Assembly: GCA_000092065.1 (NCBI GenBank)
Contig: CP000582.1
DNA: 64,000 nt
Strand: one strand, 5' to 3'
Origin: Ostreococcus lucimarinus
Taxonomy: Eukaryota
The notes below the pieces were generated by a model. The model did no database searches and was not told the DNA's origin. It was given only the letters and a program-made list of their open reading frames with translations. A program made the translations under genes and the position numbers. Below, in pieces: positions 10,279 to 56,530 of this stretch (the stretch's first letter is position 1; every line of letters starts with the position of its first letter).

Positions 10279-12267
10279 TCAAATAGATTCCGCGAAGCGG
10301 ACGACGTCGCGAACCGCGCCGCCGCGACACTGACTTCCAGAGCCGTCTAGCCCGTCGAAAGTTCGGGACCAGACGTCGTGCACGAACGCGCGCTCGCGCT
10401 CGAGCGCGAAGCGCGGCTCGCCGTGGACGCCGATGAGCCAAGGAAGGGGCTTTTCTCCGTTTTCTATGACGAATTCGAGCTCGAAGAATACCGGAGCGCC
10501 GACGGCGGCGTATCCGGCGTAATGCGAGTCTTGTATGACGTTCCGTTCTTCCCTGACGCGCGCGCGGAAAGCGCGCACGACGGTTTGACACTGCGCGATC
10601 ATAGTCTTTGAAATGTCGTCCAATCCAAGCAAGCGCGCGCACAAGTCATCGATGTCGACTTCTCGCACCACGGCGGAGGCTTCGTCGCCGCTCAAGCCTC
10701 GATTTGTGAACTCGCGCAAGAACAGCTCGTCGTCGTATTCGTCACCCAAAATCACGCCATCGCCGTACTCGCGCACCGTGGAGTGCACTGACACGTATTG
10801 CGCGATGTACGCGACGTCGAAGCTCGGTTCGCGATCGGGAACGAACGCCGCGCGGACGCGTACCGAGCACTTTCGACCGAGCTCGTCCGTCACGCAGTCC
10901 TCGACGCGTCGCTGTGCGATGAGCCCACCTCGCGATCGTCGCGACGACGAGTCGATGATTTCCTCGCGAAAATACGCCAGCGTCCCGATGCGATTCTTGC
11001 GCTGTTTGAAAAGGCCTGGAAATTTCACGTGCTCGCCTTTGAGAACGTAGAGACGATTCGCGTCGCCAGAGCTCAAGTTTTCATCGATGTTCTCACTCGT
11101 GACCAACGTGGGCGATGAGACCGCGCCAGTGCCGTCGTACTGCGCGATAGCCTCGTGCGCTCGCGTTTTCGATGTCAGGAGTTCGTGCCAATGAGCGCCG
11201 TGGCTCACACTGTTGAACATGTCGAGCGAAGCGAAGAGGGAATCTTCGCCGCGCTCGGCTTCTGCGACCGACTCGCGCGCATTCCGCCACATTTCGCGGT
11301 ACGCCTCCACACTCTCATCGTCTCCACCATCGCACGCTAAGCGTGCGAGCGGATATACCGCCATGATTCCCGCGCCCGCGTGGAGCGCTTGCGTGTACAA
11401 ACTCGTCGGCTCGGCGGCGTAGCCGTTGAGATGCAGCGCGTGCGCGAGCGTGAACAACAACAGCGGATGCTTACCCGGTCTCACGAACTTACCCTCGGGA
11501 CCTCCTGATTTAGCCAACCGCATGAGTTTCACCGCACTCGCGATCGCGCCGAACTGCACGCACATCAGTCGCGCCAGCGCGATCCACGCGTCTGGATAGT
11601 CAAACGCGACGTTGACGCACTTGGCGTACTCCTCCTCGGCGTGATTGTACAACCCCAGATCTTCGCACATTCGTCCCGCGAATACGTACGCGGCGACGCA
11701 ACTGGGCGTGTGCTCGTACGTCGATCGCACGCATGAGAGACCGCGCGCGACGTACCCCTGCGCGCGATACACCGCGCCCAGCTGCAGCGACGCCTCGTAG
11801 TACTCTGGTTCAATCGCCAACGCGCGCTCCACCTTTTCCGCGAACGCGACCGCGGCCGCCCGCGCGCGCGGCGCGCCCTCGGGCGCCACCATCGCGTTCC
11901 TCGCGTCCTCCATCAGCTCCACGACCCTCGGATCGCGATCGCGCGCCTCGGCCGCCGCCGTCATCGCGCGCACCTCGGCGTCTCGCTTCGCCTCGTCCAG
12001 CCCCTCCCGCGCGCTCGCCTCGGCGTCCTCGCGAAGCGCCGCCTCCACGTCGTCCAGCGCGCGACGCGCGTCGTTCACGTCATCGTCGTCGCGCTCGTCC
12101 TCGTCGCCGTCGCGCGCGCGATCCATCGCGTCCGCGCGCGCGCCCTCGATCGCCGCTCGAATCTTTTTCGCATCCTCGAGCACGACCCTCGCGTCGCGTC
12201 TTCGCGCCGTCTCCGCCGCGCGCCGTCGCGCCGTCGCGTACGACGTCGCGCGCTCGAATCCATACAT
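10279..12267 (-). CDS. TPR-repeat protein with a C-terminal tubulin-tyrosine-ligase-like (TTL/ATP-grasp) domain
   Basis: The N-terminal half is TPR-like (EPEYYEASLQLGAVYRAQGY..., AWIALARLMCV...). The C-terminus has RLYVLKGEHV..., and PVFFELEFVIENGEKPLPWLIGVHGEPRF resembles the TTL motif F(D/E)LxGxDFxxD...PWLLEVNxxP. GC3 bias is strong. Confidence 0.6.
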   Translation of the reverse strand: MYGFERATSYATARRRAAETARRRDARVVLEDAKKIRAAIEGARADAMDRARDGDEDERDDDDVNDARRALDDVEAALREDAEASAREGLDEAKRDAEVRAMTAAAEARDRDPRVVELMEDARNAMVAPEGAPRARAAAVAFAEKVERALAIEPEYYEASLQLGAVYRAQGYVARGLSCVRSTYEHTPSCVAAYVFAGRMCEDLGLYNHAEEEYAKCVNVAFDYPDAWIALARLMCVQFGAIASAVKLMRLAKSGGPEGKFVRPGKHPLLLFTLAHALHLNGYAAEPTSLYTQALHAGAGIMAVYPLARLACDGGDDESVEAYREMWRNARESVAEAERGEDSLFASLDMFNSVSHGAHWHELLTSKTRAHEAIAQYDGTGAVSSPTLVTSENIDENLSSGDANRLYVLKGEHVKFPGLFKQRKNRIGTLAYFREEIIDSSSRRSRGGLIAQRRVEDCVTDELGRKCSVRVRAAFVPDREPSFDVAYIAQYVSVHSTVREYGDGVILGDEYDDELFLREFTNRGLSGDEASAVVREVDIDDLCARLLGLDDISKTMIAQCQTVVRAFRARVREERNVIQDSHYAGYAAVGAPVFFELEFVIENGEKPLPWLIGVHGEPRFALERERAFVHDVWSRTFDGLDGSGSQCRGGAVRDVVRFAESI

Positions 12268-12336
12268 GCGTTCGATCGCGCGCGCGCGCGACGCGTCGTC
12301 GTCTCGCGCGTCGGTCGCGCGGTTTCCGCGCGCCGC

Positions 12337-13164
12337 GTGCGTTTTCGAAAAAGCGTTTTTTCGACGATTCGACTCGGCGCGCGGTCAAACCGCGACGCCG
12401 CGTCGTTCGCGCGCTCGATGCGCGCGCTCGTCGGCGGCGCGGACTGCGCGCGCGCGGGCGTCGCGATCGTCCTCGGCGGATTCGCGCGCGATCGCGCGTG
12501 GCGCGACGTCGCGCGCGACGACGACGGCGCGCGATCGTCGCGCGCCGTCGTCGACGATGATTTCGACGACGACGACGCGCGCGCGACGGCGACGGCGACG
12601 CCGACGCTCGGCGCGGCGCGCGACGGCGACGACGCCTTCGTCGCGCTGAACGCGCGCGTCGACCGCGCGGACGCGGCGCGCGTCGCGCTGGAGGCGATCG
12701 ACGCGCTGGACGCGCTCGCGGGCGACGACGCGCTGGACGAGGCGTGCTTCGTCGTGGCGGTGCGCGACGACGCGCTCGAGCGGGACGCGCGCGAGGTGGA
12801 CGACGCGGAGGCGTTTCTCGCGTTCGAAGACGCGCGAAACGGCGCGCGGGCGTCGCGAGCGGAGGGGATCGTGGCGAGGGCGCTCGGCGCGCGAGGGCTC
12901 GACGCGCGAGACGGCGGCGCGCTGGCGACGACGCTGCGGGCGTTGGAGGCGCGCGGGACGAAGACGAGGGTGCTGTACGCGCCGGCACACGAGGCGGGGA
13001 AGTTCGACGCGGACGGCGGGCGAGCGGCGATGGCGGTGAGGCATCGGTTGGGGCGGGCGGTGGAGGCGAGCGCGTTCGCGACGGCGCGCGCGTACGACGA
13101 GGACGCGGCGGCGAGATTGACGCCGGCAGCGGCGGCGAACGAGCGCGAGTCCCTGTACGTGTGA
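12337..13164 (+). CDS. Hypothetical Ala/Asp/Arg-rich protein of unknown function
   Basis: Almost every codon in this frame ends in G/C (coding-like GC3). The overlapping minus-strand ORFs (12075-13220) are S/R/A homopolymer-like. The track start is GTG; the first ATG gives MRALVGGADCARAG... No family recognised. Confidence 0.3.
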   Translation: MRFRKSVFSTIRLGARSNRDAASFARSMRALVGGADCARAGVAIVLGGFARDRAWRDVARDDDGARSSRAVVDDDFDDDDARATATATPTLGAARDGDDAFVALNARVDRADAARVALEAIDALDALAGDDALDEACFVVAVRDDALERDAREVDDAEAFLAFEDARNGARASRAEGIVARALGARGLDARDGGALATTLRALEARGTKTRVLYAPAHEAGKFDADGGRAAMAVRHRLGRAVEASAFATARAYDEDAAARLTPAAAANERESLYV

Positions 13165-13216
13165 TGGCGCGCTAAACTGAACGGTATTGTAATATTAAAT
13201 CGACGAACGCGTTCGC

Positions 13217-14302
13217 TCACGCGGACGGTGGCGGCGGCGGCGGCGGCGGCGGTCCGCGCGCCGGCGGCATCACGATGGTCGGTCGCCCTCGCGCGTCGTA
13301 TCGCACCGGCACGTACATCATCGGCTGCCCAGCGGCGGACGGTGGCGGCGGCGCGCCGCCGACGCCCATCTGTCCCATTGCCGCGCTCGGCGGCGGCGGT
13401 GGCGGTCGCGGAAGCCCGCGCATGCCGAACATACCGCCGCCGCCCATCGGCGACGGCTTGGCGCCGCCGCCGCGCGCGCCGGACGATCGCTTCTTTCCGT
13501 TCGCCTTTTTCCGCGCCGCTTTCGCCGCGGCTTCCTCTTCGTCGTCGCTGAACTCTTCCTCCTCGACCACTTCCTCGTCATCCTTACCGCTCGCGTCGTA
13601 CCCCTTCTTATACAACCTCGCGACGTTCGGAATCCTCCTCGACCGCCCGACGACGACGAACACCTCGTCCCCCGTCTCCGCCGTCACCTCCTCCGGCAAC
13701 CGCAGCGCGTACAGCGGCGCGCTCACCGGTCCAAACACCTCCTCGATCGCTCCCAACCCTCGCCGATCGCGCGTGCACAGCACGCTCTCCTCGTCCAGCG
13801 TCTCGTCGACGCCGTCCAGATCCGTCTCTCGCTCGCGCGTCGCGTCGCCCCTCCCGCTCTGCACCACCATCGTCCGTCCCACCACCGACACCACCCGTCC
13901 CACCGCCTCGATCGTCTCGTCGCTCCCGATCGCCGCCACCGGCGTCACCGCCCCGTCGTCGTTCGCGATCTCGTTCCGCGTCCTCGGCGGCGCGTCGCCG
14001 TCTTCGCCGTCCTCGTCGTCGTCGTCGTCGTCCCCCCCGTCGCGCGCGCGCGCCAACCACTTCGGCACGTCCCTCGCGCTCACGCTCTCGCACGACGTCG
14101 ACCCATCGTCTTCGTCGCTCTCGCTCGTCGTCCACGCGCTCGACGAGCTCGCGTCGTCGCGCCGTCGCGCCTCGTCGAACGCGAATTCCGGCACGCGCGC
14201 CTCGTCGCTCGCGTCGTCGCGTCGCGCGTCGCCCGTCGCGCGGGCCGCCGCCGCGGCGACGCGCACGTCGAGCGGCGCGCGTTCGAGCGCGCGCTCGAGC
14301 AT
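13217..14302 (-). CDS. NAF1: H/ACA snoRNP assembly factor NAF1-like (Gar1-type domain plus Pro-rich C-terminus)
   Basis: RGLGAIEEVFGPVSAPLYALRLPEEV...GDEVFVVVGRSRRIPNVARLYKKGYDASGKDDEEV is a Gar1/Naf1 fold signature. It is followed by acidic and poly-Pro/Gly tails. The track ORF extends antisense into exportin up to 15346, which is implausible. The ATG at about 14302 (MLERALERAPL) is taken as the start. Confidence 0.6.
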   Translation of the reverse strand: MLERALERAPLDVRVAAAAARATGDARRDDASDEARVPEFAFDEARRRDDASSSSAWTTSESDEDDGSTSCESVSARDVPKWLARARDGGDDDDDDEDGEDGDAPPRTRNEIANDDGAVTPVAAIGSDETIEAVGRVVSVVGRTMVVQSGRGDATRERETDLDGVDETLDEESVLCTRDRRGLGAIEEVFGPVSAPLYALRLPEEVTAETGDEVFVVVGRSRRIPNVARLYKKGYDASGKDDEEVVEEEEFSDDEEEAAAKAARKKANGKKRSSGARGGGAKPSPMGGGGMFGMRGLPRPPPPPPSAAMGQMGVGGAPPPPSAAGQPMMYVPVRYDARGRPTIVMPPARGPPPPPPPPPSA

Positions 14303-23308: not shown

Positions 23309-25399
23309 ATGTCCGACACGGCTCGCGCGACGCGGGTGAAGAATAAAGCGCCCGCGCCGGTGCAAATCACCGCGGAACAAATCGTGCGCGAATCCGCGGA
23401 GCGCGCGGAGGACGTGTACGGGGCGCCGAAGCGGAAGATCGCGGACCAGGAGGAGCTGAAGGAGTACAGATACGAACAGCGGAAGCAGTTCGAGGATCGA
23501 GTGCGGTCGTCGTACTGGGAACCGCGGGCGTGGATACGGTACGCGAAGTGGGAGGAGGGACAGGGGGATTTGCCGAGGGCGCGAAGCGTGTGGGAGCGAG
23601 CGCTGGAACATCACGGACGGGACGTGCCGATATGGTTGCAGTACGCGGAGATGGAGATGAAGAACAAAGCGATCAATCACGCGAGGAACGTGTGGGAGCG
23701 GGCGTGCTCGACGCTGCCGAGGATTGATGTGTTTTGGTACAAGTACGTGAACATGGAGGAGACGCTCGGGCAGGTTGCGGCGGCGAGACAGGTTTTCGAG
23801 AAATGGATGAAGTGGGAACCCGAACACACGGCGTGGAACGCGTATGTGAAGATGGAGCAGAGGTACGGGGAGAAAGAGCGGGCGAGGGATATCTTTCAGC
23901 GGTATGTGCAGGTGCACCCGGACGTGAAGGCGTGGACGCGCTGGGCAAAGTTTGAGTTTTCGTCGGGCGAACGCGACAAGGCGCGCGAGGTGTACGAAGC
24001 CGCGGTGGAGTTTCTGCGGAACGAACCAGAGGTTGGGAACTTATACGCCAACTTTGCCAAGTTTGAGGAGATGTGTCACGAAGTTGAGCGCGCTCGGGCG
24101 ATTTATAAATTCGCTCTCGATCGTTTGCCCAAGGAGCAAGCCGAGTCTGTGTACAAGGAGTTTATGAAGTTTGAAAAGATGCACGGAAATCGAGAAGGGA
24201 TCGAGGACGTCGTTGTGGGGCAACGACGGTTCAAGTACGAGGAAGAAGTGTCCAAGAATCCGCTGAACTACGACACTTGGTTCGATTACATTAGACTAGA
24301 AGAAAACGCCGGCGACATGGCGAAGACGCGCGAGGTGTACGAACGCGCCATCGCCAACGTGCCGCCAGCGAACGAAAAACGCTTTTGGCAGCGATACATT
24401 TATATTTGGATCAACTACGCGCTTTACGAAGAGCTCGAGGCGCGAGACGTGGAACGCACGCGAGAGGTGTACCGAGCGTGCCTCAAGGTGATTCCACACG
24501 CCGAGTTTTCGTTTTCAAAGATTTGGATCATGGCGGCAAAGTTCGAGCTTCGTCAGCGACGACTCGATGCGTGCCGTAAGATTTTTGGATTGGCCATTGG
24601 ATTAGCACCGAAGGCAAAGATATTCGCGACTTACATTGAGATCGAGTTCCAGCTCGGGAACGTCGACAGGTGTCGCACCCTGTACGAAAAGTACTTGGAA
24701 ATTGAGCCGCAAAATTGCTCGACGTGGATCAAGTACGCCGAACTCGAGCGATCGCTCGGAGAAATCGAACGTGGGCGCTCGATTTTCGAACTCGCGGTTG
24801 ATCAGGCCATGCTAGACATGCCGGAGGTACTTTGGAAGGCGTACATCGATTTCGAGACGTCCGAGGGAGAGCGCGAGCGTACGCGCGCGCTTTACGAGCG
24901 TCTTCTCGAGCGTACGAAGCACGTCAAGGTATGGATGTCTTACGCGCGCTTCGAAGCAACACCGATTGTTGTTGTGGATGACGACGCCGACGACGCTGCG
25001 ATAGCCGCCGCCACCGCCGCGGCGGAGAACGACGAGCACGAACGCCTCGAGACGCGCCAAGCGAAAAGCCGCGCCGTGTACGAGCGAGCGCTCGCTGAAC
25101 TCAAAGAAATCGATCCAGACGCCAAAGAAGAGCGTGTCATGCTTCTCGAGGCGTGGAAGTCATTCGAAGACACCTTACCGAGCGAATTCTCGAAATCCGC
25201 CGACGTCAAGGCGCGTCTTCCCAAGCGCGTTAAGCGCAAGCGCGCCGTCGAGGACGACGACGGTCGCGAAATCGCACAGGAAGAGTACTACGATTACGTC
25301 TTCCCCGACGACGCCGGCGCCGCGCAACCGTCGCTCAAGCTTCTCGAAGCCGCGTACGCGTGGAAGAAGGCCAAAGCCGCGGCTGAGGCGACGGATTAA
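23309..25399 (+). CDS. CRNKL1: Crooked-neck-like pre-mRNA splicing factor (CRNKL1/Clf1/Syf3, HAT repeats)
   Basis: True ATG at 23309. The N-terminus VKNKAPAPVQITAEQIVRE...YWEPRAWIRYAKWEEGQGDLPRARSVWERALE is followed by more than 14 HAT repeats (W..Y..FE...). It is colinear with Clf1/CRNKL1. Confidence 0.9.
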   Translation: MSDTARATRVKNKAPAPVQITAEQIVRESAERAEDVYGAPKRKIADQEELKEYRYEQRKQFEDRVRSSYWEPRAWIRYAKWEEGQGDLPRARSVWERALEHHGRDVPIWLQYAEMEMKNKAINHARNVWERACSTLPRIDVFWYKYVNMEETLGQVAAARQVFEKWMKWEPEHTAWNAYVKMEQRYGEKERARDIFQRYVQVHPDVKAWTRWAKFEFSSGERDKAREVYEAAVEFLRNEPEVGNLYANFAKFEEMCHEVERARAIYKFALDRLPKEQAESVYKEFMKFEKMHGNREGIEDVVVGQRRFKYEEEVSKNPLNYDTWFDYIRLEENAGDMAKTREVYERAIANVPPANEKRFWQRYIYIWINYALYEELEARDVERTREVYRACLKVIPHAEFSFSKIWIMAAKFELRQRRLDACRKIFGLAIGLAPKAKIFATYIEIEFQLGNVDRCRTLYEKYLEIEPQNCSTWIKYAELERSLGEIERGRSIFELAVDQAMLDMPEVLWKAYIDFETSEGERERTRALYERLLERTKHVKVWMSYARFEATPIVVVDDDADDAAIAAATAAAENDEHERLETRQAKSRAVYERALAELKEIDPDAKEERVMLLEAWKSFEDTLPSEFSKSADVKARLPKRVKRKRAVEDDDGREIAQEEYYDYVFPDDAGAAQPSLKLLEAAYAWKKAKAAAEATD

Positions 25400-25759
25400 A
25401 CGGATAAACACACCATATCCATCTATGATAGCACTCCAGACCCTTCGAATACGACAAAACCAAAACCTACGCCATCCGTACCTCAACGCCGCGCGCGCTC
25501 GAACGTCACACGCGCTCGCCCGACGCGTACGGCGGACTCGCGCCGGGCCGACACGACGGATCACTGAGGTGACTCCGCGCACACGCACGATTCAGCGCGC
25601 GCACGCGGCGCCCGCGCGCGCCGCGCACGGGCCGCGCGCGAACGCGAATTCCAGGCGGCGACCGACGCGGCGACGCGACCGACGCGCGACGACCAAACGC
25701 GCGTCCATCGGCTACCCGAGCGGTGAAGACGTCGACGTCAGCATCGACATCGACGCCGA

Positions 25760-28427
25760 AATGTCGAAGATCGCGGTCGAGCGCGCGCTGCCGACGATGT
25801 TCAGCGACCTGACGATGACGGACCCCAAGCACTGGCGGTCGACGCACGCGAGAATCGCGAACGGACCGGTGGTGCCGCAACAACTCATCGGTGGGACGCC
25901 GATGATCGATTTGAGTGAATTCAGTGCGAATCCAAAGGTGAAGATTTATGGCAAGTGCGAGTACTTGAATCCGAGCGGGAGTATTAAGGATCGAATCGCG
26001 CAGGAAATTTTGGCGAGAGCGCTGGAAACGGGAGAGCTGAAGGCGGGGATGACGGTCGTCGCGGCGACGAGTGGGAACACGGGTGCGGCGATTGCGATGG
26101 CGTGTGCGATTCGCGGGTTTCCATACATCGTGATTACGAATCAGAAGACGAGCAAGGAGAAGATTGACGCCATGCGGGCGTATGGGGGGGAGGTCATCGT
26201 CGCACCGAGCGGGGTGCCGGCGGATCACCCGGATCATTATCAAAACATCGAAGCGACGATGTGCGCAAAAAATCCGAAATTTTATGGTGTGAATCAATAC
26301 GACAATCCGTACAACGCGGATGCGTACGAAAAGACACTTGGTCCTGAGATTTGGTCGCAAACCGAAGGGGCGGTGACGCACTTCGTCGCCGGTGGCTCGA
26401 CTGGCGGTACGATCACAGGCACGGGTCGTTATCTTAAGAGTGTCGACCCGACGATTAAAATCGTCTTGGCCGATCCCAAGGGAAGCGTTCTGTGGGATTA
26501 TTTTGTGAACGACATTCCTGAAGAAGAACTCGTGGCGAAGAGTTGGGAAGTCGAGGGTGTGGGTAAAGATTCCATTCCGGGTGTACTCGACACCGAATAC
26601 ATTGACGGCGCCGTCATGGGTGACGACAGTAGTTCCTTCCGCATGGTTCGCACGGTTGCTGAATCTTCTGGTGTCTTGCTCGGTGGTAGCTCCGGTCTAA
26701 ACCTGCACGCTGCTCGCGTGCTCTCGAGTCACATCAAGGAGGGGACCATCGTCACGGTACTGTGCGACAGCGGTGTCAAGTACTTGTCCAAGATCTATAA
26801 CGATGAGTGGCTTCAAGCGAAGAATCTTGACAAACCGTTAGCCGACGTTTCGAAGTACGAAGTCCACTGGAAGAACGGCTCGCATGAAGTAACGGAGGAT
26901 GAAGAAAACGACAGCTTGTGGGGCCGTGAACAGGAAGAGAAAGAACTTCGTTTCCTCGATGAAGTGGCGACGCACATGGTTGAATACCACCGTAACTCGA
27001 TTCGAGCGACGGAACCGGTGAGTGTGTACAACTCTCCCGCCGATCTCCACGCCAGCTTCGAAGAGATGGGCGTTCCACTGAATTTTCGCTCCGGCGAATC
27101 GCCAATTTCCATCAACAATCTTACAACCGCTATGAATGCTGTTTTGGACAACAGTGTGCGAAGCTCGCACCCGATGTTCATGAATCAGCTCTACGCAGGC
27201 GTTGACCCCATCGCGCTCGCGGGCGAATGGGCATCAAGCGCGCTGAACTCAAACGTGCACACCTTTGAAGTAGCACCGATTCTCACCGAAATTGAGCGTT
27301 CAATGCTCGCAAAGATTGCGTCACTCTGGCTTGGAGAGAATGCAGATGGCTCGGCGCCTGATCACGACGGCTTATTTGTACCGGGAGGTTCCATCGCTAA
27401 TCTGTACTCTATGATCTTGGCGCGCGAGCGCGCATGCCCAGAAGCGAAGAAAACCGGAATGCCGCAAGGCTACGTTGCCTTCTGCTCTGAACAATCGCAC
27501 TACTCCTACAAGAAGTGCGCCCACATGATAGGTTTAGGTATGGATAACATGATCAAGGTCGATTGTGGCAAGAATGGTGCCATGCTTCCTGAAGCACTCG
27601 AAGCCGCGATAGCGGCCGCGAAGGCTGCGGGCAAGACACCGTTTTACTGCGGCGCCACGGCGGGGAGCACTGTTTTGGGCGCGTATGACCCGTTTGCTGC
27701 GTTGGCCGACGTGTGTGCCAAAGATAACGTTTGGTTGCACGTCGATGGGGCGTGGGGTGGCGCTGCGCTCGTCTCCAAGCAGCACAAACACTTGATGAAC
27801 GGCGTCGAGCGAGCAGACAGCTTTTGCTGGAACCCGCACAAGCTGTTGGGCATTCCTCTCCAGTGCTCCATCGTTCTGAGTAGACACGCTGGAGAATTCA
27901 TGGCGGCCAATTCTTACAAGGCGGACTACTTGTTCCAGCCCGACAAGAATAACACCGAAGCTGATTTGGGCGATCGCACTATCCAATGCGGCCGCAAGTC
28001 TGACGCGCTCAAATTGTGGCTCGCGTGGAAGTACCGCGGCGACGAAGGTTGGGAAAAACTCGTTGACCACGCCTTCTCTTTGGCCAAGTTCGTCGAAGCA
28101 GAAGTCGTGCAGGACACCACGGGTGCTTGGGCGCTGGCCACACCCGCGCAGTGCGCCAATGTCGGATTCTGGTACGTGCCGCCGCGCCTACGTCCGTTCA
28201 ACAAGGACACCGCGACGCCCGAACAATTCGCGGAAATTGCCAAGGTTGCCCCGAAGCTCAAGGATCGGATGCAACGCGCCGGTGACGCTATGATCGGTTT
28301 CCAACCCGTTCCGGCGCTCAACCTGCCCAACTTTTTCCGTCTCGTATTGCCGAATCCTCGTCACAACAGCGAGACCAAGCTTCGCGAGCTCATGAAGCGC
28401 ATGGACGCGATGGGCGCCGACCTCTGA
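25760..28427 (+). CDS. Bifunctional PLP enzyme. N-terminal cystathionine-beta-synthase/cysteine-synthase-fold domain (PALP) is fused in one ORF to a complete group-II decarboxylase domain (CSAD/GAD family). An alternative in-frame ATG at about 25425 would add an R/T/S-rich presequence.
   Basis: PALP domain: LIGGTPMIDL...YLNPSGSIKDRIA (Lys), TSGNTGAAIAMACAIRGFPYIVI, GGSTGGTITG, DPKGSVL...WEVEGVGKDSIPGVLD (CBS-type). There is no stop between the domains. Decarboxylase domain: SHPMFMNQLYAGVDPIALAGEWASSALNSNVHTFEVAPILTEIERSMLAKIASLWLG (compare GAD/[26 protein letters not shown]...TYEIAPVF...GW). It has the PLP-lysine motif SFCWNPHKLLGIPLQCS. The track ORF starts at a GTG inside the crooked-neck CDS and is therefore trimmed. 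Confidence 0.8.
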
Positions 28428-28789: not shown

Positions 28790-30061
28790 CAACCGATTCT
28801 TTCGGTCGATTTTAATCCCCGCACGGGCGCGTTGGCGACCGCGGGCGCGGATAACGAGATCAAACTCTGGCGCGTGGACCGATCGATCGATGGTGAGGTG
28901 ACGGTGACGCACACGGAGACGCTGACGGGACACGCCAAGGCGGTGAACTGCTGTCGGTTTAGCGCGAACGGTCGAGCGTTGGCGAGCGCGGGAGACGCGG
29001 GAGACGTGTACGTGTGGCGAGAGGTGGACGTGGGGTCGACGACGGTCAATTCGCACGGAGACGTTGTCGGGTGGAAGCCGATGAAGACGCTGCGCGGGCA
29101 CTCGGACGATGCGTTGAGCGTCTGCTGGGGACCGAGGGAGACGCTGGCGAGCGCTTCGGTGGATAACACGACGATTTTATGGGATTGCGAGAGTGGTAAC
29201 GGTGTGGTGCAGTTGCGCGAACACGCGCATTACGTGCAGGGAGTGAGTTATGATCCGCGGGGGGAGTTTATAGTCTCGCAGAGTCCCGATCGAACCGCAC
29301 AAGTGTACGCCGTTGTCGGCGGCGGTAAGCCGTCGGCGAAGAGCGTGAAACACGTGCGGGCGATTAAGGCGATTAACGACACGAATGAGAGAGTCGATGG
29401 CGGGCGCATGGCGTCAATCTTTCACGACGACTCTATGACGTCGTTTTTCCGCCGCCCGGCCTGGTCACCAGATGGTTCGTTCGTAGTGTTTCCGGCTGGA
29501 GTGTTCAAACGCCCGGGCGCCAAGCGAGCCATGCATACGACGTATGTCTACGCTCGTGGGAACTTTGAAACGCCCGTCATGCACTTACCAGGCGGCGAGA
29601 CGCCATCTGTGTGTGTTAGATTCAATCCTGTGCTGTTCAAGCGTCGAAAAGACGCCGCTGATCCTACGACACCGTCAGACTTGCCGTATCGCGTCGTCTT
29701 CGCGGTGTGCTCGCAAGACGGCGTCACGATCTACGACACCGATGAAACCGAACCGATCGTGTACGTCGCTGGTATCCACTGCACGTCTATCACAGACTGC
29801 GCATGGTCCCCGGATGGTGGAATGCTTGTCGTGAGTAGCACGGACGGTTTCGCGAGCGTCGTCGCCTTCGATGAAGGCGAGCTTGGCGCGCCAGAGACTA
29901 ACATCCCCGAACACGTGAAGTCTTTGCTAGCGTCGTCGAGGATAGGAGAAAGCGTGCCCGATGAAGTTGTCGTTGTTGCGCCGGCGGTACCCAATCCGGT
30001 AGCCGCTGGACCGGGACCGACGAGAATCGCGCCAGTGCGCATCGCGCCGACGCCCATGTAG
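28790..30061 (+). CDS. CHAF1B: Chromatin assembly factor 1 subunit B (CAF-1 p60) main exon, WD40 repeats
   Basis: [93 protein letters not shown] are all colinear with CHAF1B/Cac2. The track M at 28832 is a TTG. Confidence 0.8.
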   Translation, partial: [423 protein letters not shown]

Positions 30062-53797: not shown

Positions 53798-54118
53798 TCA
53801 CGTCTCCTCGAGTTCGCTCTCGTCCAGGTGCGCGATGAAATCTTTCCCGCCGTTCGGGTTCGGGATCGCCACCTTGACCGCGAGCGTCGCGCTCGTCGTC
53901 GCGCCCTCGTGCGCGTCCGCGCGCGAATCGACGACGCCCGTCATGCCGATGAGATCCGTCGCCGCGCCCTTTGATTTCGGGACGTGGTACACGACGACGG
54001 ATGATTTCACGCGAACCTTCGCGCCGACGCCGAGCGCGGCGCGGGCGACGACGGCGGCGCGGGCGGGAGGGCGCGCGACGGCGCGCGCGAGGGGGGCGCG
54101 CGAGGACGACGCGAACAT
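53798..54118 (-). CDS. FTRV: Ferredoxin-thioredoxin reductase variable (alpha) subunit with transit peptide
   Basis: ATG at about 54118. KVRVKSSVVVYHVPKSKGAATDLIGMTGVV...KDFIAHLDESELEE aligns with FTRV (KVRVKSPLKVYHVPK...FFAHLKEDEFE). Confidence 0.75.
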   Translation of the reverse strand: MFASSSRAPLARAVARPPARAAVVARAALGVGAKVRVKSSVVVYHVPKSKGAATDLIGMTGVVDSRADAHEGATTSATLAVKVAIPNPNGGKDFIAHLDESELEET

Positions 54119-54232
54119 CGCGGCGAGAGGCGCGAAGTGCGGACGAAGGGGCGAAGTCGAAAGCTACGATGCGACGGGGTGCGTGTTGAAAAGAATCGAT
54201 TCGACGAGGCGATCGGTGGGGCGACAGGACGG

Positions 54233-55192
54233 TCACGCGTCGGCGTCGTCGCGGTCGGCGCGGTCGGTGTGGTCGCGAAGCGACATCGCGAGCGCGGCGC
54301 GAAGCTCGGCGTCGTCGTCGTCCTCGGCGGTCGCCGTCGCGGCGTCGGCGATTTCGGCGCTCGGACGCTGACCCATGCTCAGCGCGAGGGCTTGTTGGAG
54401 TAAAGCGTCGTCGTCGAGCATCATGGGATCGGCGGTGGCGTCGACGGGGGAGGTGTCGGCGCTGCCGGCGCCCTCGCTCGCGGCGACGCCCTCCTCGGCG
54501 GCGGCGGGCGCGGACGCGCCGGCGGCGGCGGCGGCTTCCTGACGCGCGCGCTCTTCTTCGAGCGAAATTCGCAGCGCCATCATCAACGCTGGATCGTCTC
54601 CCATGTCTCCCATGTCTCCCATGCCCTCGAGGCCCTGCATCGCCGCCTGCGACTGCGCCGCCGCCGCCGCCGCCGCGAATCCGCTCCCCGACGCCGCTCC
54701 GTCTTGATTGAAAATCGCCGTCCCGCACAAGACATCGCTCAGATTCGCCCCCGGCTCGACGACGACCAGATTCGAGTTATTATTCTTATTCACGCTCGTC
54801 ACGAACGCGTCCAACTTCTCTCGATTCGCCTCGACGTCGCCGAACGACACCACGTCCACCGCCACGTTGCACTTGCGCAATTTTTTCCCCACCGCTCGCA
54901 GCGCCTCGATCTCATCCCTCAGCGGGCTTCCGACGAACAGCACGATCCGCATTCGCTGGTGTTTATTCTGTCTGTGTTTCAGCGCCAAGTGCGCCACCTG
55001 GACGCCGACGCAGACGTTGATCTCGCCCTCGATCTTCACCCCGTGCACCGAGTTGAGCACCGCGCCCAGGTCCTGCGTCGGCGTCGTGAGCACGCGCGGC
55101 GTCTTTCCCGCCAGCGACAGCACGCCGACCGCGTTCTCGGGGTTGCTCTGCGTCTTCGCCCCGGCGAGCAGGTTCAATGCGTCCGCCTCGGC
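54233..55192 (-). CDS. RPN10: 26S proteasome regulatory subunit RPN10/PSMD4 (vWA domain plus ubiquitin-interacting motifs), exon 2
   Basis: LLAGAKTQSNPENAVGVLSLAGKTPRVLTTPTQDLGAVLNSVHGVKIEGEINVCVGVQVAHLALKHRQNKHQRMRIVLFVGSP is colinear with PSMD4. Two UIMs: DPALMMALRISLEEER and DDALLQQALALSMGQ...ELRAALAMSL. Confidence 0.8.
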   Translation of the reverse strand, partial: AEADALNLLAGAKTQSNPENAVGVLSLAGKTPRVLTTPTQDLGAVLNSVHGVKIEGEINVCVGVQVAHLALKHRQNKHQRMRIVLFVGSPLRDEIEALRAVGKKLRKCNVAVDVVSFGDVEANREKLDAFVTSVNKNNNSNLVVVEPGANLSDVLCGTAIFNQDGAASGSGFAAAAAAAQSQAAMQGLEGMGDMGDMGDDPALMMALRISLEEERARQEAAAAAGASAPAAAEEGVAASEGAGSADTSPVDATADPMMLDDDALLQQALALSMGQRPSAEIADAATATAEDDDDAELRAALAMSLRDHTDRADRDDADA

Positions 55193-55313
55193 CTGCGATC
55201 GCGCGGCGCGCGTCAGTCGTCGCGTCGCGCGCGTCGTCGGTCGTCGGTCGTCGCCGCGGTCGTTGGGCGATCTGCGCGCGAGAAAAACGTCGCGCGCGGC
55301 GCGGCGCGCGCAC
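55193..55313 (-). other. RPN10: Predicted RPN10 intron (about 121 nt; donor CAG|GTGCGCGCG, acceptor CAG)
   Basis: Joins exon 1 ...SRLQ to exon 2 AEADAMNLLAGAKTQ. This reproduces [36 protein letters not shown] of PSMD4. Confidence 0.55.
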
Positions 55314-55394
55314 CTGAAGACGCGAGGGGGCGTAGTCGGAGTTGCGAACGTGTTCGCTGTTATCGAGACACAGGATCGTGGCCTCGAGGACCAT
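55314..55394 (-). CDS. RPN10: RPN10/PSMD4 exon 1 (MVLEATILCLDNSEHVRNSDYAPSRLQ)
   Basis: ATG at about 55394 on the minus strand. The 27 aa are almost identical to the universally conserved Rpn10 N-terminus. They are embedded in a spurious 363-aa R-rich track ORF. Confidence 0.6.
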
Positions 55395-55525
55395 GACGCG
55401 CGCGCGGGGGGGGGTGTGACGCGATCGAGCGCGGAGGCGCGGCGACGCCGAGGCGAAGCGGCGAAGCGGCGCGCGGATTACAAAAGCTCGAGACGCGAGC
55501 GTGGGGCGCGCGAAGCGCTGGGTGA

Positions 55526-56530
55526 CTAGACGACGCCGACGAAATCTTCGCCCTCCCAATCGTCGTATATGGAGCGGCGCGCGAGGTCGGGAACGGGGGC
55601 GTCGCAGTCCATCGCGTCCGTCGCGTCCGTCGCGTCCGTCGCGCGCGCCGCGTCGGACGACGGCGCGAATCCCGGACGCTTGCGAGGCGTCGGGGTGACG
55701 GCGTCCCAACCGGGGCTCATGTCCGCGCGCGATGGAAGCGTGGAGCGCGTCGCGACGTCGGCGGCGCGCAGCGGCGCGAGGCGGACCACGGGAAGGCGTC
55801 GACCGTCGCGCGCGGCGGCTTCGGCTTCGGCTTTGGCGCGCGCGCGCGCCTCGGCGGCCTCGGCCAACTCTCGCGGCACGTACTCTCCGGGTTTCAGCGT
55901 CCCGTTCGGTCTCGCGAGTGGATCCACGGGCACGCGAACCATCTCCTCGTCGTCCTCCACCGGCGGATCGTACGCGTGCAACAACCGTCGCCACTTGCGC
56001 ACCGCGCCGTCGAACGCGCGTTTCGACATTCCCGCGCGAATGTTCGGCGTCCACGCATCGCTCGATCTCCTCGCGCTCTTCGCCACGAGCTCGCGATATC
56101 GCGCGTACCCGAGCGTGTTCTTCCCGTAATCGATCTGTCGCTGTCGTTGTCGCAGCTTGTGCGGATCCGTCTCCTCGCGCGTCGTCGCGTCGTCGCCCGA
56201 GCCGCGCCGCGCGTCGCCCGCCGCGGCGTTCGTCAGGTCGTACACGTCCTCGATCTCCCCGTCTTCGATCGCGCGCTTGACGTCGATTCGTTTGCGTTCG
56301 TTCGAGCGCCTCGCGCGCGCGCCCTCGCGCGATCGCGCGACGAGGCCGCGCGAGACGTCGCCGTCGCGCGTCGCTTTTCGCGCGCTCGCGGGCTTGACGA
56401 TCGCGCGCGCGGGCGCGGTGCGCTTGACGTTGGCGTCGTGCTTGCGCGCGAACGGACGGTGCGATGGCGATTCGTCGTCGCGCGCGGCGCGCGGCGCGCG
56501 CGAGGGCGACGGACGCGGACGAGGCGTCAT
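55526..56530 (-). CDS. SLBP: Histone RNA hairpin (stem-loop)-binding protein, SLBP
   Basis: TDPHKLRQRQRQIDYGKNTLGYARYRELVAKSARRSSDAWTPNIRAGMSKRAFDGAVRKWRRLLHAYDPP aligns with the SLBP RNA-binding domain (TDPHKLRRRQKQIDYGKNTIGYDRY...WKVALHFWDPP). ATG at 56530. Confidence 0.7.
   Translation of the reverse strand: MTPRPRPSPSRAPRAARDDESPSHRPFARKHDANVKRTAPARAIVKPASARKATRDGDVSRGLVARSREGARARRSNERKRIDVKRAIEDGEIEDVYDLTNAAAGDARRGSGDDATTREETDPHKLRQRQRQIDYGKNTLGYARYRELVAKSARRSSDAWTPNIRAGMSKRAFDGAVRKWRRLLHAYDPPVEDDEEMVRVPVDPLARPNGTLKPGEYVPRELAEAAEARARAKAEAEAAARDGRRLPVVRLAPLRAADVATRSTLPSRADMSPGWDAVTPTPRKRPGFAPSSDAARATDATDATDAMDCDAPVPDLARRSIYDDWEGEDFVGVV

What the first reader, a model, noticed from the sequence alone, without database searches (positions are those of the whole stretch)
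25425..28427. Single-ORF fusion of a CBS/cysteine-synthase-type PLP domain with a CSAD/GAD-type decarboxylase: candidate bifunctional sulfonate (taurine/hypotaurine-type) osmolyte synthase
The sequence shows one uninterrupted reading frame, in a region where genes are otherwise intron-free. It encodes a complete fold-type-II PALP beta-replacement domain with the Schiff-base Lys in SGSIKDR, TSGNTG, GGSTGGT and a CBS-like EVEGVG motif. This is followed, with no stop codon, by a complete group-II decarboxylase including its own N-terminal region (SHPMFMNQLYAGVDPIALAGEW...) and the PLP lysine (NPHKLLG). From established knowledge, CBS/CysK-fold enzymes do beta-replacements on serine/OAS/cysteine, including cysteine + sulfite to cysteate (cysteine lyase, a CBS paralogue). 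They also include cysteate-forming enzymes. CSAD-family decarboxylases convert cysteate or cysteine sulfinate to taurine or hypotaurine. My inference is that the physical fusion channels two consecutive steps of an amino-sulfonate pathway in a marine alga. Sulfonates such as taurine, DHPS and isethionate are major currencies in marine algae. An R/S/T-rich in-frame presequence (from the ATG at about 25425) could target it to an organelle. I cannot tell from sequence whether the decarboxylase is CSAD-, GAD- or aspartate-decarboxylase-like.
Basis: partly seen in the sequence, partly recalled or inferred. Interest (0 to 1): 0.85.

Follow-up and report, generated by a model that had tools for sequence, protein, structure and literature searches.

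The report
Algal cysteate-synthase-like/decarboxylase fusion enzyme gene
This Ostreococcus gene really does join a cystathionine-synthase-like enzyme to a taurine-type decarboxylase in one protein, probably making taurine from activated serine plus sulfite, but the fusion is already named in public databases and its chemistry is still untested.

Summary
One uninterrupted reading frame encodes a complete fold-type-II PALP domain followed by a complete group-II PLP decarboxylase. Every catalytic motif is intact in both halves. Independent metagenome assemblies carry the identical protein. Transcripts from related green algae encode the same fusion.

The proposed organelle presequence is not supported. 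The real start is most likely ATG 25761, giving 888 aa. Three sister Ostreococcus clades have no upstream in-frame ATG, and 25425-25670 shows no coding signal.

The N half is neither a canonical CBS nor a CysK. It belongs to a eukaryotic clade with Lys where CBS has Tyr (EGVGK versus EGIGY). It shares that Lys with the bacterial CapA-type cysteate synthase.

The decarboxylase carries Tyr/Asn/His at the three selectivity positions, against Phe/Ser/Tyr in CSAD and Ser/Asn/Phe in GAD. The Tyr, as in GADL1, argues against glutamate.

Cysteate is the one beta-replacement product that is also a short acidic amino acid. Activated serine + sulfite → cysteate → taurine is therefore the best reading, at about 0.5 confidence. 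It is entirely inferred.

The fusion is old and widespread in marine green algae. In O. tauri it is already annotated "cysteine synthetase/pyridoxal dependent decarboxylase". It is known as a gene but uncharacterised as an enzyme.

The parts
25761..28427 (+). Most likely coding sequence of the fusion enzyme: 888 aa plus the stop codon, with no introns.
   Evidence: The ORF is uninterrupted. Codon-bias signal in this frame begins around 25674-25734. The orthologous Met is the first in-frame ATG in three other Ostreococcus clades. The protein aligns colinearly with 16 fusion homologues.
25425..25760 (+). It is most likely 5' UTR or intergenic DNA.
   Evidence: ATG 25425 lies 25 nt after the stop of the upstream gene (25397-25399). 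Up to about 25670 there is no codon-bias signal in any frame, and GC is 0.69 against about 0.55-0.59 in the gene. The orthologous regions in L055, L056 and L057 have no in-frame ATG.
25881..26768 (+). Fold-type-II PLP (PALP) beta-replacement domain, CBS-like and of the 'K-loop' type.
   Evidence: Pfam PF00291, E 7e-75. It is 35-42% identical to CBS catalytic cores and 35% identical to the CapA-type cysteate synthase 9k2p.
25986..25988 (+). Schiff-base lysine of the PALP domain: K76 of the 888-aa protein, within SGSIKDR.
   Evidence: The motif was located, is invariant in alignment A1, and aligns with the CBS PLP lysine.
26565..26567 (+). Loop lysine K269 (EGVGKDS), which replaces the Tyr of canonical CBS (EGIGYDF) and is shared with the CapA-type cysteate synthase. 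It is a candidate anion-binding residue for phosphate or sulfite.
   Evidence: PDB 9k2p was identified as CapA-type from its NF053679 score of 614 bits against a cut-off of 600.
26844..26909 (+). Short acidic linker of about 22 aa between the two enzymes. Its length varies among homologues.
   Evidence: CBS homology ends near 26843 and GAD67 homology begins at 26910. The region is gapped in A1, and pLDDT is below 50 at residues 373-385.
26910..28424 (+). Complete group-II PLP decarboxylase of the GAD/CSAD/GADL1 superfamily. The Pfam core is at 27099-28175.
   Evidence: PF00282, E 3e-90. PDB matches: GAD67 395 bits, CSAD 366 bits, GADL1 345 bits.
27192..27260 (+). Substrate-selectivity triad Y478 / N498 / H500 (NQLY...NSNVHTFE).
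   Evidence: The alignment to GAD67/65 (S/N/F) and to CSAD (F/S/Y) is. The role of the first position is described in bioRxiv 10.1101/2020.09.25.308866. Y/N/H is invariant in all fusions.
27840..27842 (+). Schiff-base lysine of the decarboxylase: K694, within NPHK.
   Evidence: Also conserved are His580 (SHYS), the catalytic-loop Tyr723 (ADYLFQPDK) and Arg860 (NFFRLV).

Best explanation
The gene encodes a bifunctional, two-cofactor PLP enzyme of a marine prasinophyte (Ostreococcus).

Step 1 (inferred). The N-terminal CBS-like 'K-loop' PALP domain forms the PLP-aminoacrylate intermediate from an activated serine. By analogy with CapA this is most likely O-phospho-L-serine. O-acetylserine, serine or cysteine are not excluded. 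Sulfite is then added to give L-cysteate.

Step 2 (inferred). The C-terminal group-II decarboxylase has a Tyr/Asn/His side-chain pocket. It excludes glutamate and accepts short acidic side chains. It removes the alpha-carboxyl of cysteate to give taurine.

The protein most likely starts at ATG 25761 and has no organelle presequence in Ostreococcus. Both halves belong to families of obligate dimers, so the fusion should form a dimer or a higher oligomer.

Shown here: the fused architecture, intact catalytic residues in both halves, conservation of the fusion, and the distinctive residues. Inferred: every substrate and product.
For: 1. Architecture and integrity are established.
2. The fusion is conserved as one gene in Ostreococcus (4 clades, same synteny), Bathycoccus, Mantoniella, Pycnococcus, Pseudoscourfieldia, Prasinoderma, Prasinococcus and Tetraselmis. 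MMETSP transcripts encode complete fused ORFs.
3. The N half fails the curated cut-offs for CBS, CysK/CysM and CapA. All 23 members of its clade have Lys where CBS has Tyr, and Lys where CBS has Asn and CapA has Arg. The first Lys is shared with PDB 9k2p, which NCBIfam scores as a CapA cysteate synthase (614 bits against a cut-off of 600). Bacteroidota cysteate synthase starts sulfonolipid synthesis from L-phosphoserine (PMC11211663).
4. The first selectivity position of the decarboxylase is Tyr, as in GADL1. It is Phe in CSAD, where it blocks glutamate, and Ser in GAD.
5. Chemical logic supports cysteate. Of the known beta-replacement products (Cys, cystathionine, S-sulfocysteine, cyanoalanine, cysteate), only cysteate is a short acidic amino acid of the kind this decarboxylase family uses. 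CSAD and GADL1 accept cysteate.
6. A related prasinophyte, Micromonas, is inferred from bacterial reporter transcription to release taurine, N-acetyltaurine and isethionate (PMC9870897).
7. Annotators have already named the O. tauri orthologue 'cysteine synthetase/pyridoxal dependent decarboxylase'.
Against: - There is no biochemical or genetic data.
- Overall the N half is closer to CBS (306 bits; about 36-42% identity) than to CapA (258 bits; 35% identity). The shared Lys may therefore be convergent.
- The Tyr/Asn/His triad matches neither CSAD nor GAD. It also occurs in stand-alone decarboxylases of freshwater and terrestrial green algae, ichthyosporeans, Euglena and some arthropods. It is therefore not specific to marine taurine producers and is compatible with aspartate.
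- A GC-MS metabolite survey of O. tauri lists beta-alanine and no taurine, although the method is poorly suited to sulfonates (PMC5392535).
- I could not show that the Micromonas strain releasing taurine carries the fusion.
- AlphaFold gives no confident inter-domain packing (pTM 0.56).
Confidence: 0.5

Rival explanations
1. The two enzymes are functionally independent and happen to be fused. The C half is a PLP-dependent aspartate 1-decarboxylase or general CSAD-type enzyme supplying beta-alanine (for pantothenate and CoA) or hypotaurine. The N half is a cysteine-synthase or CBS-type sulfur-assimilation enzyme.
For: - Stand-alone Tyr/Asn/His decarboxylases about 50% identical to the C half occur in non-marine green algae (Coccomyxa, Trebouxia, Raphidocelis, Monoraphidium), in Euglena and in ichthyosporeans. 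This distribution suggests a housekeeping role.
- Arthropod proteins with Y/N/H or Y/N/Y cluster with animal CSAD/ADC-type enzymes. Insect ADCs use aspartate and CSA (PMC10594873).
- Beta-alanine is present in O. tauri and its source is unassigned (PMC5392535).
Against: - The fusion has been kept intact across very deep green-algal splits, from Prasinodermophyta to Mamiellophyceae. That is hard to explain without a functional link.
- The N half fails the CysK, CysM and CBS cut-offs and carries non-CBS active-site residues.
Confidence: 0.17
2. It is a coupled two-step enzyme with a different nucleophile or product. Examples: sulfide → cysteine → cysteamine (then hypotaurine and taurine through a dioxygenase); thiosulfate → S-sulfocysteine → S-sulfocysteamine; or another anion, giving an amine not yet described.
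For: - CysK/CysM/CBS-fold enzymes are promiscuous in their nucleophile. This is established knowledge; the family scores are.
- The His/Asn pocket has no characterised precedent that I could find.
- The cationic K269 and K340 would suit any anionic co-substrate.
Against: - Cysteine is not an acidic side chain. The decarboxylase retains the features of acidic-amino-acid decarboxylases and a bulky Tyr at position 1.
- The only characterised enzyme I found that shares the loop Lys is a cysteate synthase.
Confidence: 0.15
3. The C half is a glutamate decarboxylase that makes GABA, as many automatic annotations say ('glutamate decarboxylase').
For: - The best PDB score is GAD67 (395 bits, against 366 for CSAD). 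Part of the difference arises because the alignment extends further towards the N terminus.
- The second selectivity position is Asn, as in GAD.
- JGI and NCBI names say 'glutamate decarboxylase'.
Against: - Position 1 is Tyr, not the Ser that contacts the glutamate carboxylate in GAD. In CSAD a bulky aromatic residue here blocks the longer substrate.
- Position 3 is His, not Phe.
- In a neighbour-joining tree the fusions do not group with GAD65/67.
Confidence: 0.04
4. The single ORF is an artefact: an assembly chimera, a sequencing frameshift or a read-through of two genes.
For: One NCBI gene model for O. tauri (P0035) is indeed chimeric. It joins the PALP half to an unrelated SAPS-domain sequence.
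Against: - The identical ORF lies on at least 24 independent metagenome contigs.
- Four Ostreococcus clades have the same fused gene in the same synteny.
- Complete fused ORFs occur in transcriptomes of Ostreococcus, Mantoniella and Prasinococcus.
- The second O. tauri model, OUS42194.1, is the full fusion.
Confidence: 0.01

Closest known systems
Ostreococcus tauri OUS42194.1, 'cysteine synthetase/pyridoxal dependent decarboxylase' (888 aa), and its prasinophyte orthologues
   Same: It has the same two-domain architecture, the same length and the same first Met. It is 79-83% identical and has the same flanking genes (HAT-repeat splicing factor upstream, WD40 CAF-1B-like downstream).
   Different: Nothing of substance differs. 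The window gene is the orthologue in another Ostreococcus clade. Neither protein has published biochemistry in the library I could search. From memory, and unverified, patents describe a 'CS/PLP-DC' from Micromonas and Ostreococcus for taurine production.
Bacterial CapA-type cysteate synthase (NCBIfam NF053679; PDB 9k2p), the first enzyme of capnine and sulfonolipid synthesis
   Same: Both have the CBS-like PALP fold. Both have Lys in the EG(I/V)GK loop where CBS has Tyr, and a basic residue (K340 here, Arg in CapA) where CBS has Asn. The reaction proposed here is the CapA reaction.
   Different: Identity is only 35%. The score on the CapA model is 258 bits against a cut-off of 600. CapA is a stand-alone protein of about 330 aa that feeds a lipid pathway and is not fused to a decarboxylase.
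Cystathionine beta-synthase (catalytic core)
   Same: CBS is the best overall sequence match for the N half (36-42% identity; TIGR01137 306 bits). The PLP Lys, the Asn loop, the phosphate loop and the GGSSG Ser are all conserved.
   Different: The score is below the cut-off of 510. There is no haem domain and no C-terminal Bateman (CBS-pair) module. Thirteen clade-specific substitutions are present, including Y→K, F→S and GAGTGGT→GGSTGGT.
CSAD / GADL1 / GAD65-67 (animal acidic-amino-acid decarboxylases) and insect aspartate decarboxylases
   Same: The C half is alignable over its full length. The PLP Lys, the stacking His, the catalytic-loop Tyr and the carboxylate-binding Arg are all conserved. 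Tyr at selectivity position 1 matches GADL1.
   Different: The triad is Tyr/Asn/His, against Phe/Ser/Tyr in CSAD and Ser/Asn/Phe in GAD. The C half forms a separate, mostly protist and algal clade, and here it is fused to a PALP enzyme.
Sauropsid cysteine lyase (a CBS paralogue) plus CSAD: cysteine + sulfite → cysteate → taurine
   Same: It has the same two-step logic: a CBS-fold beta-replacement with sulfite followed by a group-II decarboxylase. The route is oxygen-independent. It is cited in PMC12019592; the details are from my own knowledge of Malatesta et al. 2020.
   Different: There the two steps are carried out by two separate proteins. Cysteine lyase is a recent CBS duplicate, not a member of the K-loop clade. 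I could not obtain its sequence to test this.

Membership tests
Fold-type-II PLP enzymes (Pfam PALP PF00291) | Domain match above the gathering score, with the Schiff-base Lys, Asn loop, Gly-rich phosphate loop and N1-binding Ser all present. | tested here: met
   252.5 bits against a cut-off of 35. SGSIKDR, TSGNTG, GGSTGGT and GGSSG are all present and invariant in 17 homologues.
Cystathionine beta-synthase (TIGR01137) | Score at or above 510 bits, a C-terminal Bateman (CBS-pair) module, and the EGIGYDF loop. | tested here: not met
   306 bits. Pfam finds no CBS domain. The loop is EGVGKDS.
Cysteine synthase CysK/CysM (TIGR01139, TIGR01136, TIGR01138, NF007989) | Score at or above the curated cut-off of the model. 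| tested here: not met
   Scores are 224 against 351, 245 against 344, 202 against 394 and 293 against 387.
CapA-type cysteate synthase (NF053679) | Score at or above 600 bits. | tested here: not met
   258 bits. The positive control, PDB 9k2p, scores 614 bits.
CapA-type cysteate synthase (NF053679) | Cationic residues in the active-site loops: Lys in EGxGK and Arg/Lys in the G-x-(R/K)-Y segment. | tested here: met
   K269 and K340 are conserved in 23 of 23 clade members. CapA has K and R there, and CBS has Y and N. Their catalytic role is assumed, not shown.
CapA-type cysteate synthase (NF053679) | Catalysis of O-phosphoserine + sulfite → cysteate. | not testable with these tools
   This needs an enzyme assay.
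Group-II PLP decarboxylases (Pfam PF00282) | Domain match above the gathering score, with NPHK Lys, the stacking His, the catalytic-loop Tyr and the carboxylate Arg. | tested here: met
   303 bits against a cut-off of 27. All four residues are conserved.
Cysteine sulfinate decarboxylase (CSAD) | Selectivity triad Phe/Ser/Tyr. | tested here: not met
   The triad here is Tyr/Asn/His. The triad definition is partly (position 1) and partly from my memory of Agnello et al. 2013 (positions 2 and 3).
Glutamate decarboxylase (GAD65/67 type) | Selectivity triad Ser/Asn/Phe. | tested here: not met
   Only the middle Asn matches. The fusions do not group with GAD in the tree.
Prasinophyte 'cysteine synthetase/PLP decarboxylase' fusion family | PALP followed by Pyridoxal_deC in one polypeptide, with the K-loop and the Y/N/H triad, orthologous by identity and synteny. 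| tested here: met

The most novel reading that the evidence does not exclude
The fusion acts as a 'Rosetta stone'. On this reading, the eukaryotic K-loop CBS-like clade is the missing cysteate synthase of marine eukaryotes. That clade is fused to a decarboxylase in prasinophytes. It stands alone in diatoms (Proboscia), dictyochophytes (Octactis) and a Micromonas-like alga, and it is tandemly duplicated in thraustochytrids (Hondaea). It would be the oxygen-independent entry point from sulfite into taurine and also into the C3 sulfonates (cysteate, sulfolactate, DHPS, cysteinolate). The algal biosynthesis of these compounds is still called unknown (PMC12814064).
Probability: 0.3. Interest if true: 0.75.

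Novelty: already known. Interest (0 to 1): 0.42.

Why it matters
Taurine and related sulfonates are major currencies between marine phytoplankton and bacteria. The algal enzymes that make them are poorly defined. A 2025 paper still calls algal cysteinolate biosynthesis unknown.

If this enzyme makes taurine from activated serine and sulfite, it defines a route independent of cysteine and oxygen. That route would be present in some of the most abundant picoeukaryotes: Ostreococcus, Bathycoccus and relatives. It would also give a one-gene marker for taurine production in metagenomes and metatranscriptomes. In addition it would point to the stand-alone K-loop homologues in diatoms and other algae as candidate cysteate synthases.

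The gene itself is not a discovery. The value lies in the testable assignment and in the residues to mutate: K269, K340, Y478, N498 and H500.

Tried and rejected
1. **Bacterial operon context for the decarboxylase.** Two scans of 185,579 bacterial and archaeal species genomes found no fusion. They did find 50 stand-alone decarboxylases in Acidimicrobiales, about 40% identical to the C half. In about 19-22 of these loci the next gene is a fused histidinol-dehydrogenase-like + DegT-aminotransferase gene. HpsN-family dehydrogenases make L-cysteate from L-cysteinolate (PMC12814064), so I first read this as support for cysteate. One search then showed that these bacterial enzymes carry Phe/Thr/Ala, not Tyr/Asn/His. 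The argument does not transfer, and I rejected it.

2. **A remembered aspartate determinant.** I recalled an aspartate-selectivity residue of insect ADC (Gln377) and guessed that it follows the catalytic-loop Tyr. Every sequence, arthropod ones included, has YLFQ there. The guess about its position was wrong, and no conclusion follows.

3. **Literature.** Ten full-text searches found no paper that describes this fusion. Durham et al. 2019, Agnello et al. 2013 and Malatesta et al. 2020 are not held in the library.

4. **Curated NCBIfam models.** No model is passed by either half.

5. **The organelle presequence.** Rejected for Ostreococcus. Mantoniella, Bathycoccus and others do have long N-terminal extensions that start with Met.

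6. **AlphaFold monomer.** Both domains are confident, but the model gives no information on inter-domain geometry. The decarboxylase pocket loops have low confidence, as expected for a site formed at a dimer interface.
Full report
**1. Observation**

The window is gene-dense, about 61% GC, and made of long intron-free ORFs. Orthologues identify it as an Ostreococcus species that is not O. tauri. O. tauri is about 79-83% identical at this protein.

The ORF 25134..28427 (+) is uninterrupted. Translated from ATG 25425, it gives two Pfam matches in one frame. PALP lies at aa 153-448 (E 7e-75) and Pyridoxal_deC at aa 559-917 (E 3e-90). Homology to human GAD67 runs from window 26910 to the last codon, so the decarboxylase is complete, including its N-terminal segment.

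The identical protein lies on at least 24 independently assembled marine metagenome contigs. All have the same neighbours: a HAT-repeat crooked-neck-like gene upstream and a WD40 CAF-1B-like gene downstream. Three further Ostreococcus clades have the same fused gene in the same synteny.

**2. One transcript**

I have no RNA data for this strain. Transcriptome-derived complete ORFs encode the same fusion in another Ostreococcus (891 aa), in Mantoniella antarctica (994 aa) and in Prasinococcus (1022 aa).

**3. Start codon**

The presequence idea does not hold for Ostreococcus, for three reasons.

- ATG 25425 lies 25 nt after the stop of the upstream gene.
- Up to about 25670 the region has no codon-bias signal in any frame, and its GC is 0.69. 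The signal in the gene's frame appears at about 25674-25734.
- In the three sister clades there is no in-frame ATG upstream of the conserved Met. The longer database versions (954, 921 and 894 aa) start at GTG or TTG codons chosen by prokaryote-style gene callers.

The NCBI model OUS42194.1 for O. tauri (888 aa) and the Ostreococcus transcripts start at the conserved Met. I therefore place the start at ATG 25761, giving 888 aa. Other genera (Mantoniella, Bathycoccus, P0018) do have long Met-initiated N-terminal extensions that look like transit peptides. Localisation may therefore differ between lineages.

**4. The N half**

This half is 36-42% identical to CBS catalytic cores and 35% identical to PDB 9k2p. 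It fails every curated NCBIfam cut-off:

| Model | Score (bits) | Cut-off (bits) |
|---|---|---|
| CBS | 306 | 510 |
| 'Cysteine synthase A' PRK10717 | 293 | 387 |
| CapA cysteate synthase | 258 | 600 |
| CysK | 224 | 351 |

It has no Bateman module.

From the printed alignment I reconstructed residues 15-328 of 9k2p and scored them. The result was 614 bits on the CapA cysteate-synthase model, above its cut-off of 600. So 9k2p is a CapA-type cysteate synthase by NCBI's criterion. Bacteroidota cysteate synthase opens the sulfonolipid pathway from L-phosphoserine (PMC11211663).

I compared 23 members of the algal clade with 11 CBS domains and with CapA. Thirteen positions separate the clade from CBS.

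- At one of them the clade and CapA share Lys (EGVGKDS and EGIGKNL, against EGIGYDF in CBS).
- At another the clade has Lys, CapA has Arg and CBS has Asn.
- The loop Lys is present in 218 PALP domains of my collection. The Tyr type is confined to canonical CBS.

That these cationic residues bind the phosphate leaving group or sulfite is my inference.

**5. The C half**

All catalytic residues are conserved: NPHK Lys, the stacking His, the catalytic-loop Tyr and the carboxylate-binding Arg.

| Enzyme | Position 1 | Position 2 | Position 3 | Source |
|---|---|---|---|---|
| This protein | Tyr | Asn | His | |
| CSAD | Phe | Ser | Tyr | |
| GAD65/67 | Ser | Asn | Phe | |
| GADL1 | Tyr | not checked | not checked | |

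Structural work on mouse CSAD shows that Phe94 blocks the longer glutamate and that GAD has Ser there (bioRxiv 10.1101/2020.09.25.308866). Tyr/Asn/His is invariant in all fusions, including those only 44-48% identical. It also dominates the nearest stand-alone homologues.

In a neighbour-joining tree the fusions sit among algal and protist Tyr/Asn/His enzymes, apart from GAD65/67 and from vertebrate CSAD.

The triad is not diagnostic for cysteate. It also occurs in non-marine green algae, in Euglena, in ichthyosporeans and in some arthropod proteins. Insect ADCs use aspartate and CSA.

**6. Distribution**

The fusion occurs in these taxa:

- Ostreococcus.
- Bathycoccus prasinos.
- Mantoniella.
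- Pycnococcus and Pseudoscourfieldia.
- Prasinoderma.
- Prasinococcus.
- Tetraselmis striata.
- A EukProt record labelled Pelagococcus subviridis.

It is therefore ancient in marine green algae. At 50% identity clustering, the full-length fusions collapse into essentially one cluster among 1.84 billion representatives. No fusion exists in 185,579 bacterial and archaeal species genomes.

Core chlorophytes and Pedinophyceae have the decarboxylase alone. Diatoms (Proboscia), Octactis, thraustochytrids (tandem PALP-PALP) and a Micromonas-like green alga (PALP plus coiled coil, 68% identical) have the K-loop PALP enzyme alone.

**7. Mechanism**

The most economical reading is this. The N half forms PLP-aminoacrylate from an activated serine and adds sulfite to give cysteate. 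The C half decarboxylates cysteate to taurine.

The argument is an intersection. The PALP fold makes beta-substituted alanines. This decarboxylase family, with a bulky residue at position 1, takes short acidic side chains. Cysteate is the one common member, and CSAD and GADL1 do accept it. The loop Lys shared with CapA adds weight.

A related prasinophyte, Micromonas commoda, is inferred to release taurine, N-acetyltaurine and isethionate (PMC9870897). I could not prove that strain carries the fusion.

AlphaFold (17-sequence alignment) gives two confidently folded domains with a mean pLDDT of 78.6, but pTM is 0.56. The first 43 residues, the linker and the dimer-interface pocket loops are disordered in the model. 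It gives no evidence for or against channelling.

**8. Weaknesses and rivals**

Nothing is shown experimentally. Overall the N half is nearer to CBS than to CapA. The decarboxylase clade is widespread outside marine taurine producers.

O. tauri contains beta-alanine of unassigned origin, and a GC-MS survey lists no taurine, although the method is poorly suited to sulfonates. A housekeeping aspartate/CSA decarboxylase fused to an unrelated sulfur enzyme therefore remains possible. So does a coupled enzyme with another nucleophile. GAD activity is unlikely, and artefact is excluded.

One line of evidence had to be withdrawn. The Acidimicrobiales decarboxylases sit next to a histidinol-dehydrogenase-like/aminotransferase fusion and looked like support for cysteate. 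They carry Phe/Thr/Ala, not Tyr/Asn/His.

**9. Novelty**

The O. tauri orthologue is already named 'cysteine synthetase/pyridoxal dependent decarboxylase' in NCBI and UniProt. JGI names several relatives 'cysteine synthase/glutamate/tyrosine decarboxylase-like PLP-dependent enzyme'.

From memory, and not verifiable here, patents describe a 'CS/PLP-DC' from Micromonas and Ostreococcus for taurine production. Also from memory, Tevatia et al. 2015 proposed a microalgal taurine route from serine and sulfate-derived sulfur.

Ten full-text searches found no paper that characterises the enzyme.

Noticed in passing
L003:8052-12045 and about 19-22 other Acidimicrobiales loci (e.g. L014, L026, L040): Marine Acidimicrobiales MAGs have a conserved two-gene module. 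A group-II decarboxylase with a Phe/Thr/Ala selectivity triad is followed immediately by a single ~837-aa protein that fuses a histidinol-dehydrogenase-like domain (PF00815) to a DegT-type aminotransferase. A DAO-GCV_T (dimethylglycine-dehydrogenase-like) gene often lies upstream. The substrate is unknown. HpsN-family members oxidise DHPS and L-cysteinolate, and Acidimicrobiia are reported as proficient taurine users.
   Followed up: partly
P0043 (Hondaea fermentalgiana) and P0040-P0046, P0086-P0091: Thraustochytrid and stramenopile proteins of about 750-800 aa consist of two tandem K-loop CBS-like PALP domains (EGVGKGS / EGVGKQN). They are annotated as cysteine synthase or CBS. Their summed score comes close to the CapA cysteate-synthase cut-off.
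   Followed up: partly
L058:4001-6556 (P0055; also P0027, P0047-P0085): The closest stand-alone relative of the N half (68% identity) is an 851-aa protein with a disordered N terminus, a K-loop PALP domain and a long coiled-coil tail. It lies on compact, 63% GC green-algal contigs next to an SDG2-type SET gene. One variant (P0027, 1233 aa) has the PALP domain duplicated. Mamiellales therefore seem to have an unfused paralogue as well.
   Followed up: partly
P0035 (NCBI O. tauri gene model, 808 aa): One public O. tauri gene model is chimeric. It joins the PALP half and the linker of this gene to an unrelated SAPS-domain (PF04499) sequence. A separate partial entry, XP_003075194.2 (493 aa), holds the decarboxylase half. 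The later model OUS42194.1 is the correct fusion.
   Followed up: yes
P0490 (Daphnia), P0502 (Homalodisca), P0504 (Nezara): Some arthropod CSAD/GAD-annotated proteins carry Tyr/Asn/His or Tyr/Asn/Tyr at the selectivity positions, not the vertebrate CSAD triad. They are probably insect ADC-type enzymes.
   Followed up: no
window 23309-25399 (+) and 28832-30061 (+): The flanking genes are a 696-aa HAT-repeat crooked-neck/Syf1-like splicing factor and a 409-aa WD40 CAF-1B/HIR1-like protein. This three-gene order is conserved in four Ostreococcus clades.
   Followed up: yes
window 12001-14000 and 54001-56000: Two 2-kb stretches have markedly higher GC (0.73 and 0.70) than the window mean of 0.61, with overlapping long ORFs on both strands.
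   Followed up: no
P0013 (EukProt 'Pelagococcus subviridis'): A full fusion labelled as coming from a pelagophyte is very close to the Mamiellaceae sequences (Mantoniella group) in the tree. This suggests either gene transfer between algae or contamination of that dataset.
   Followed up: no
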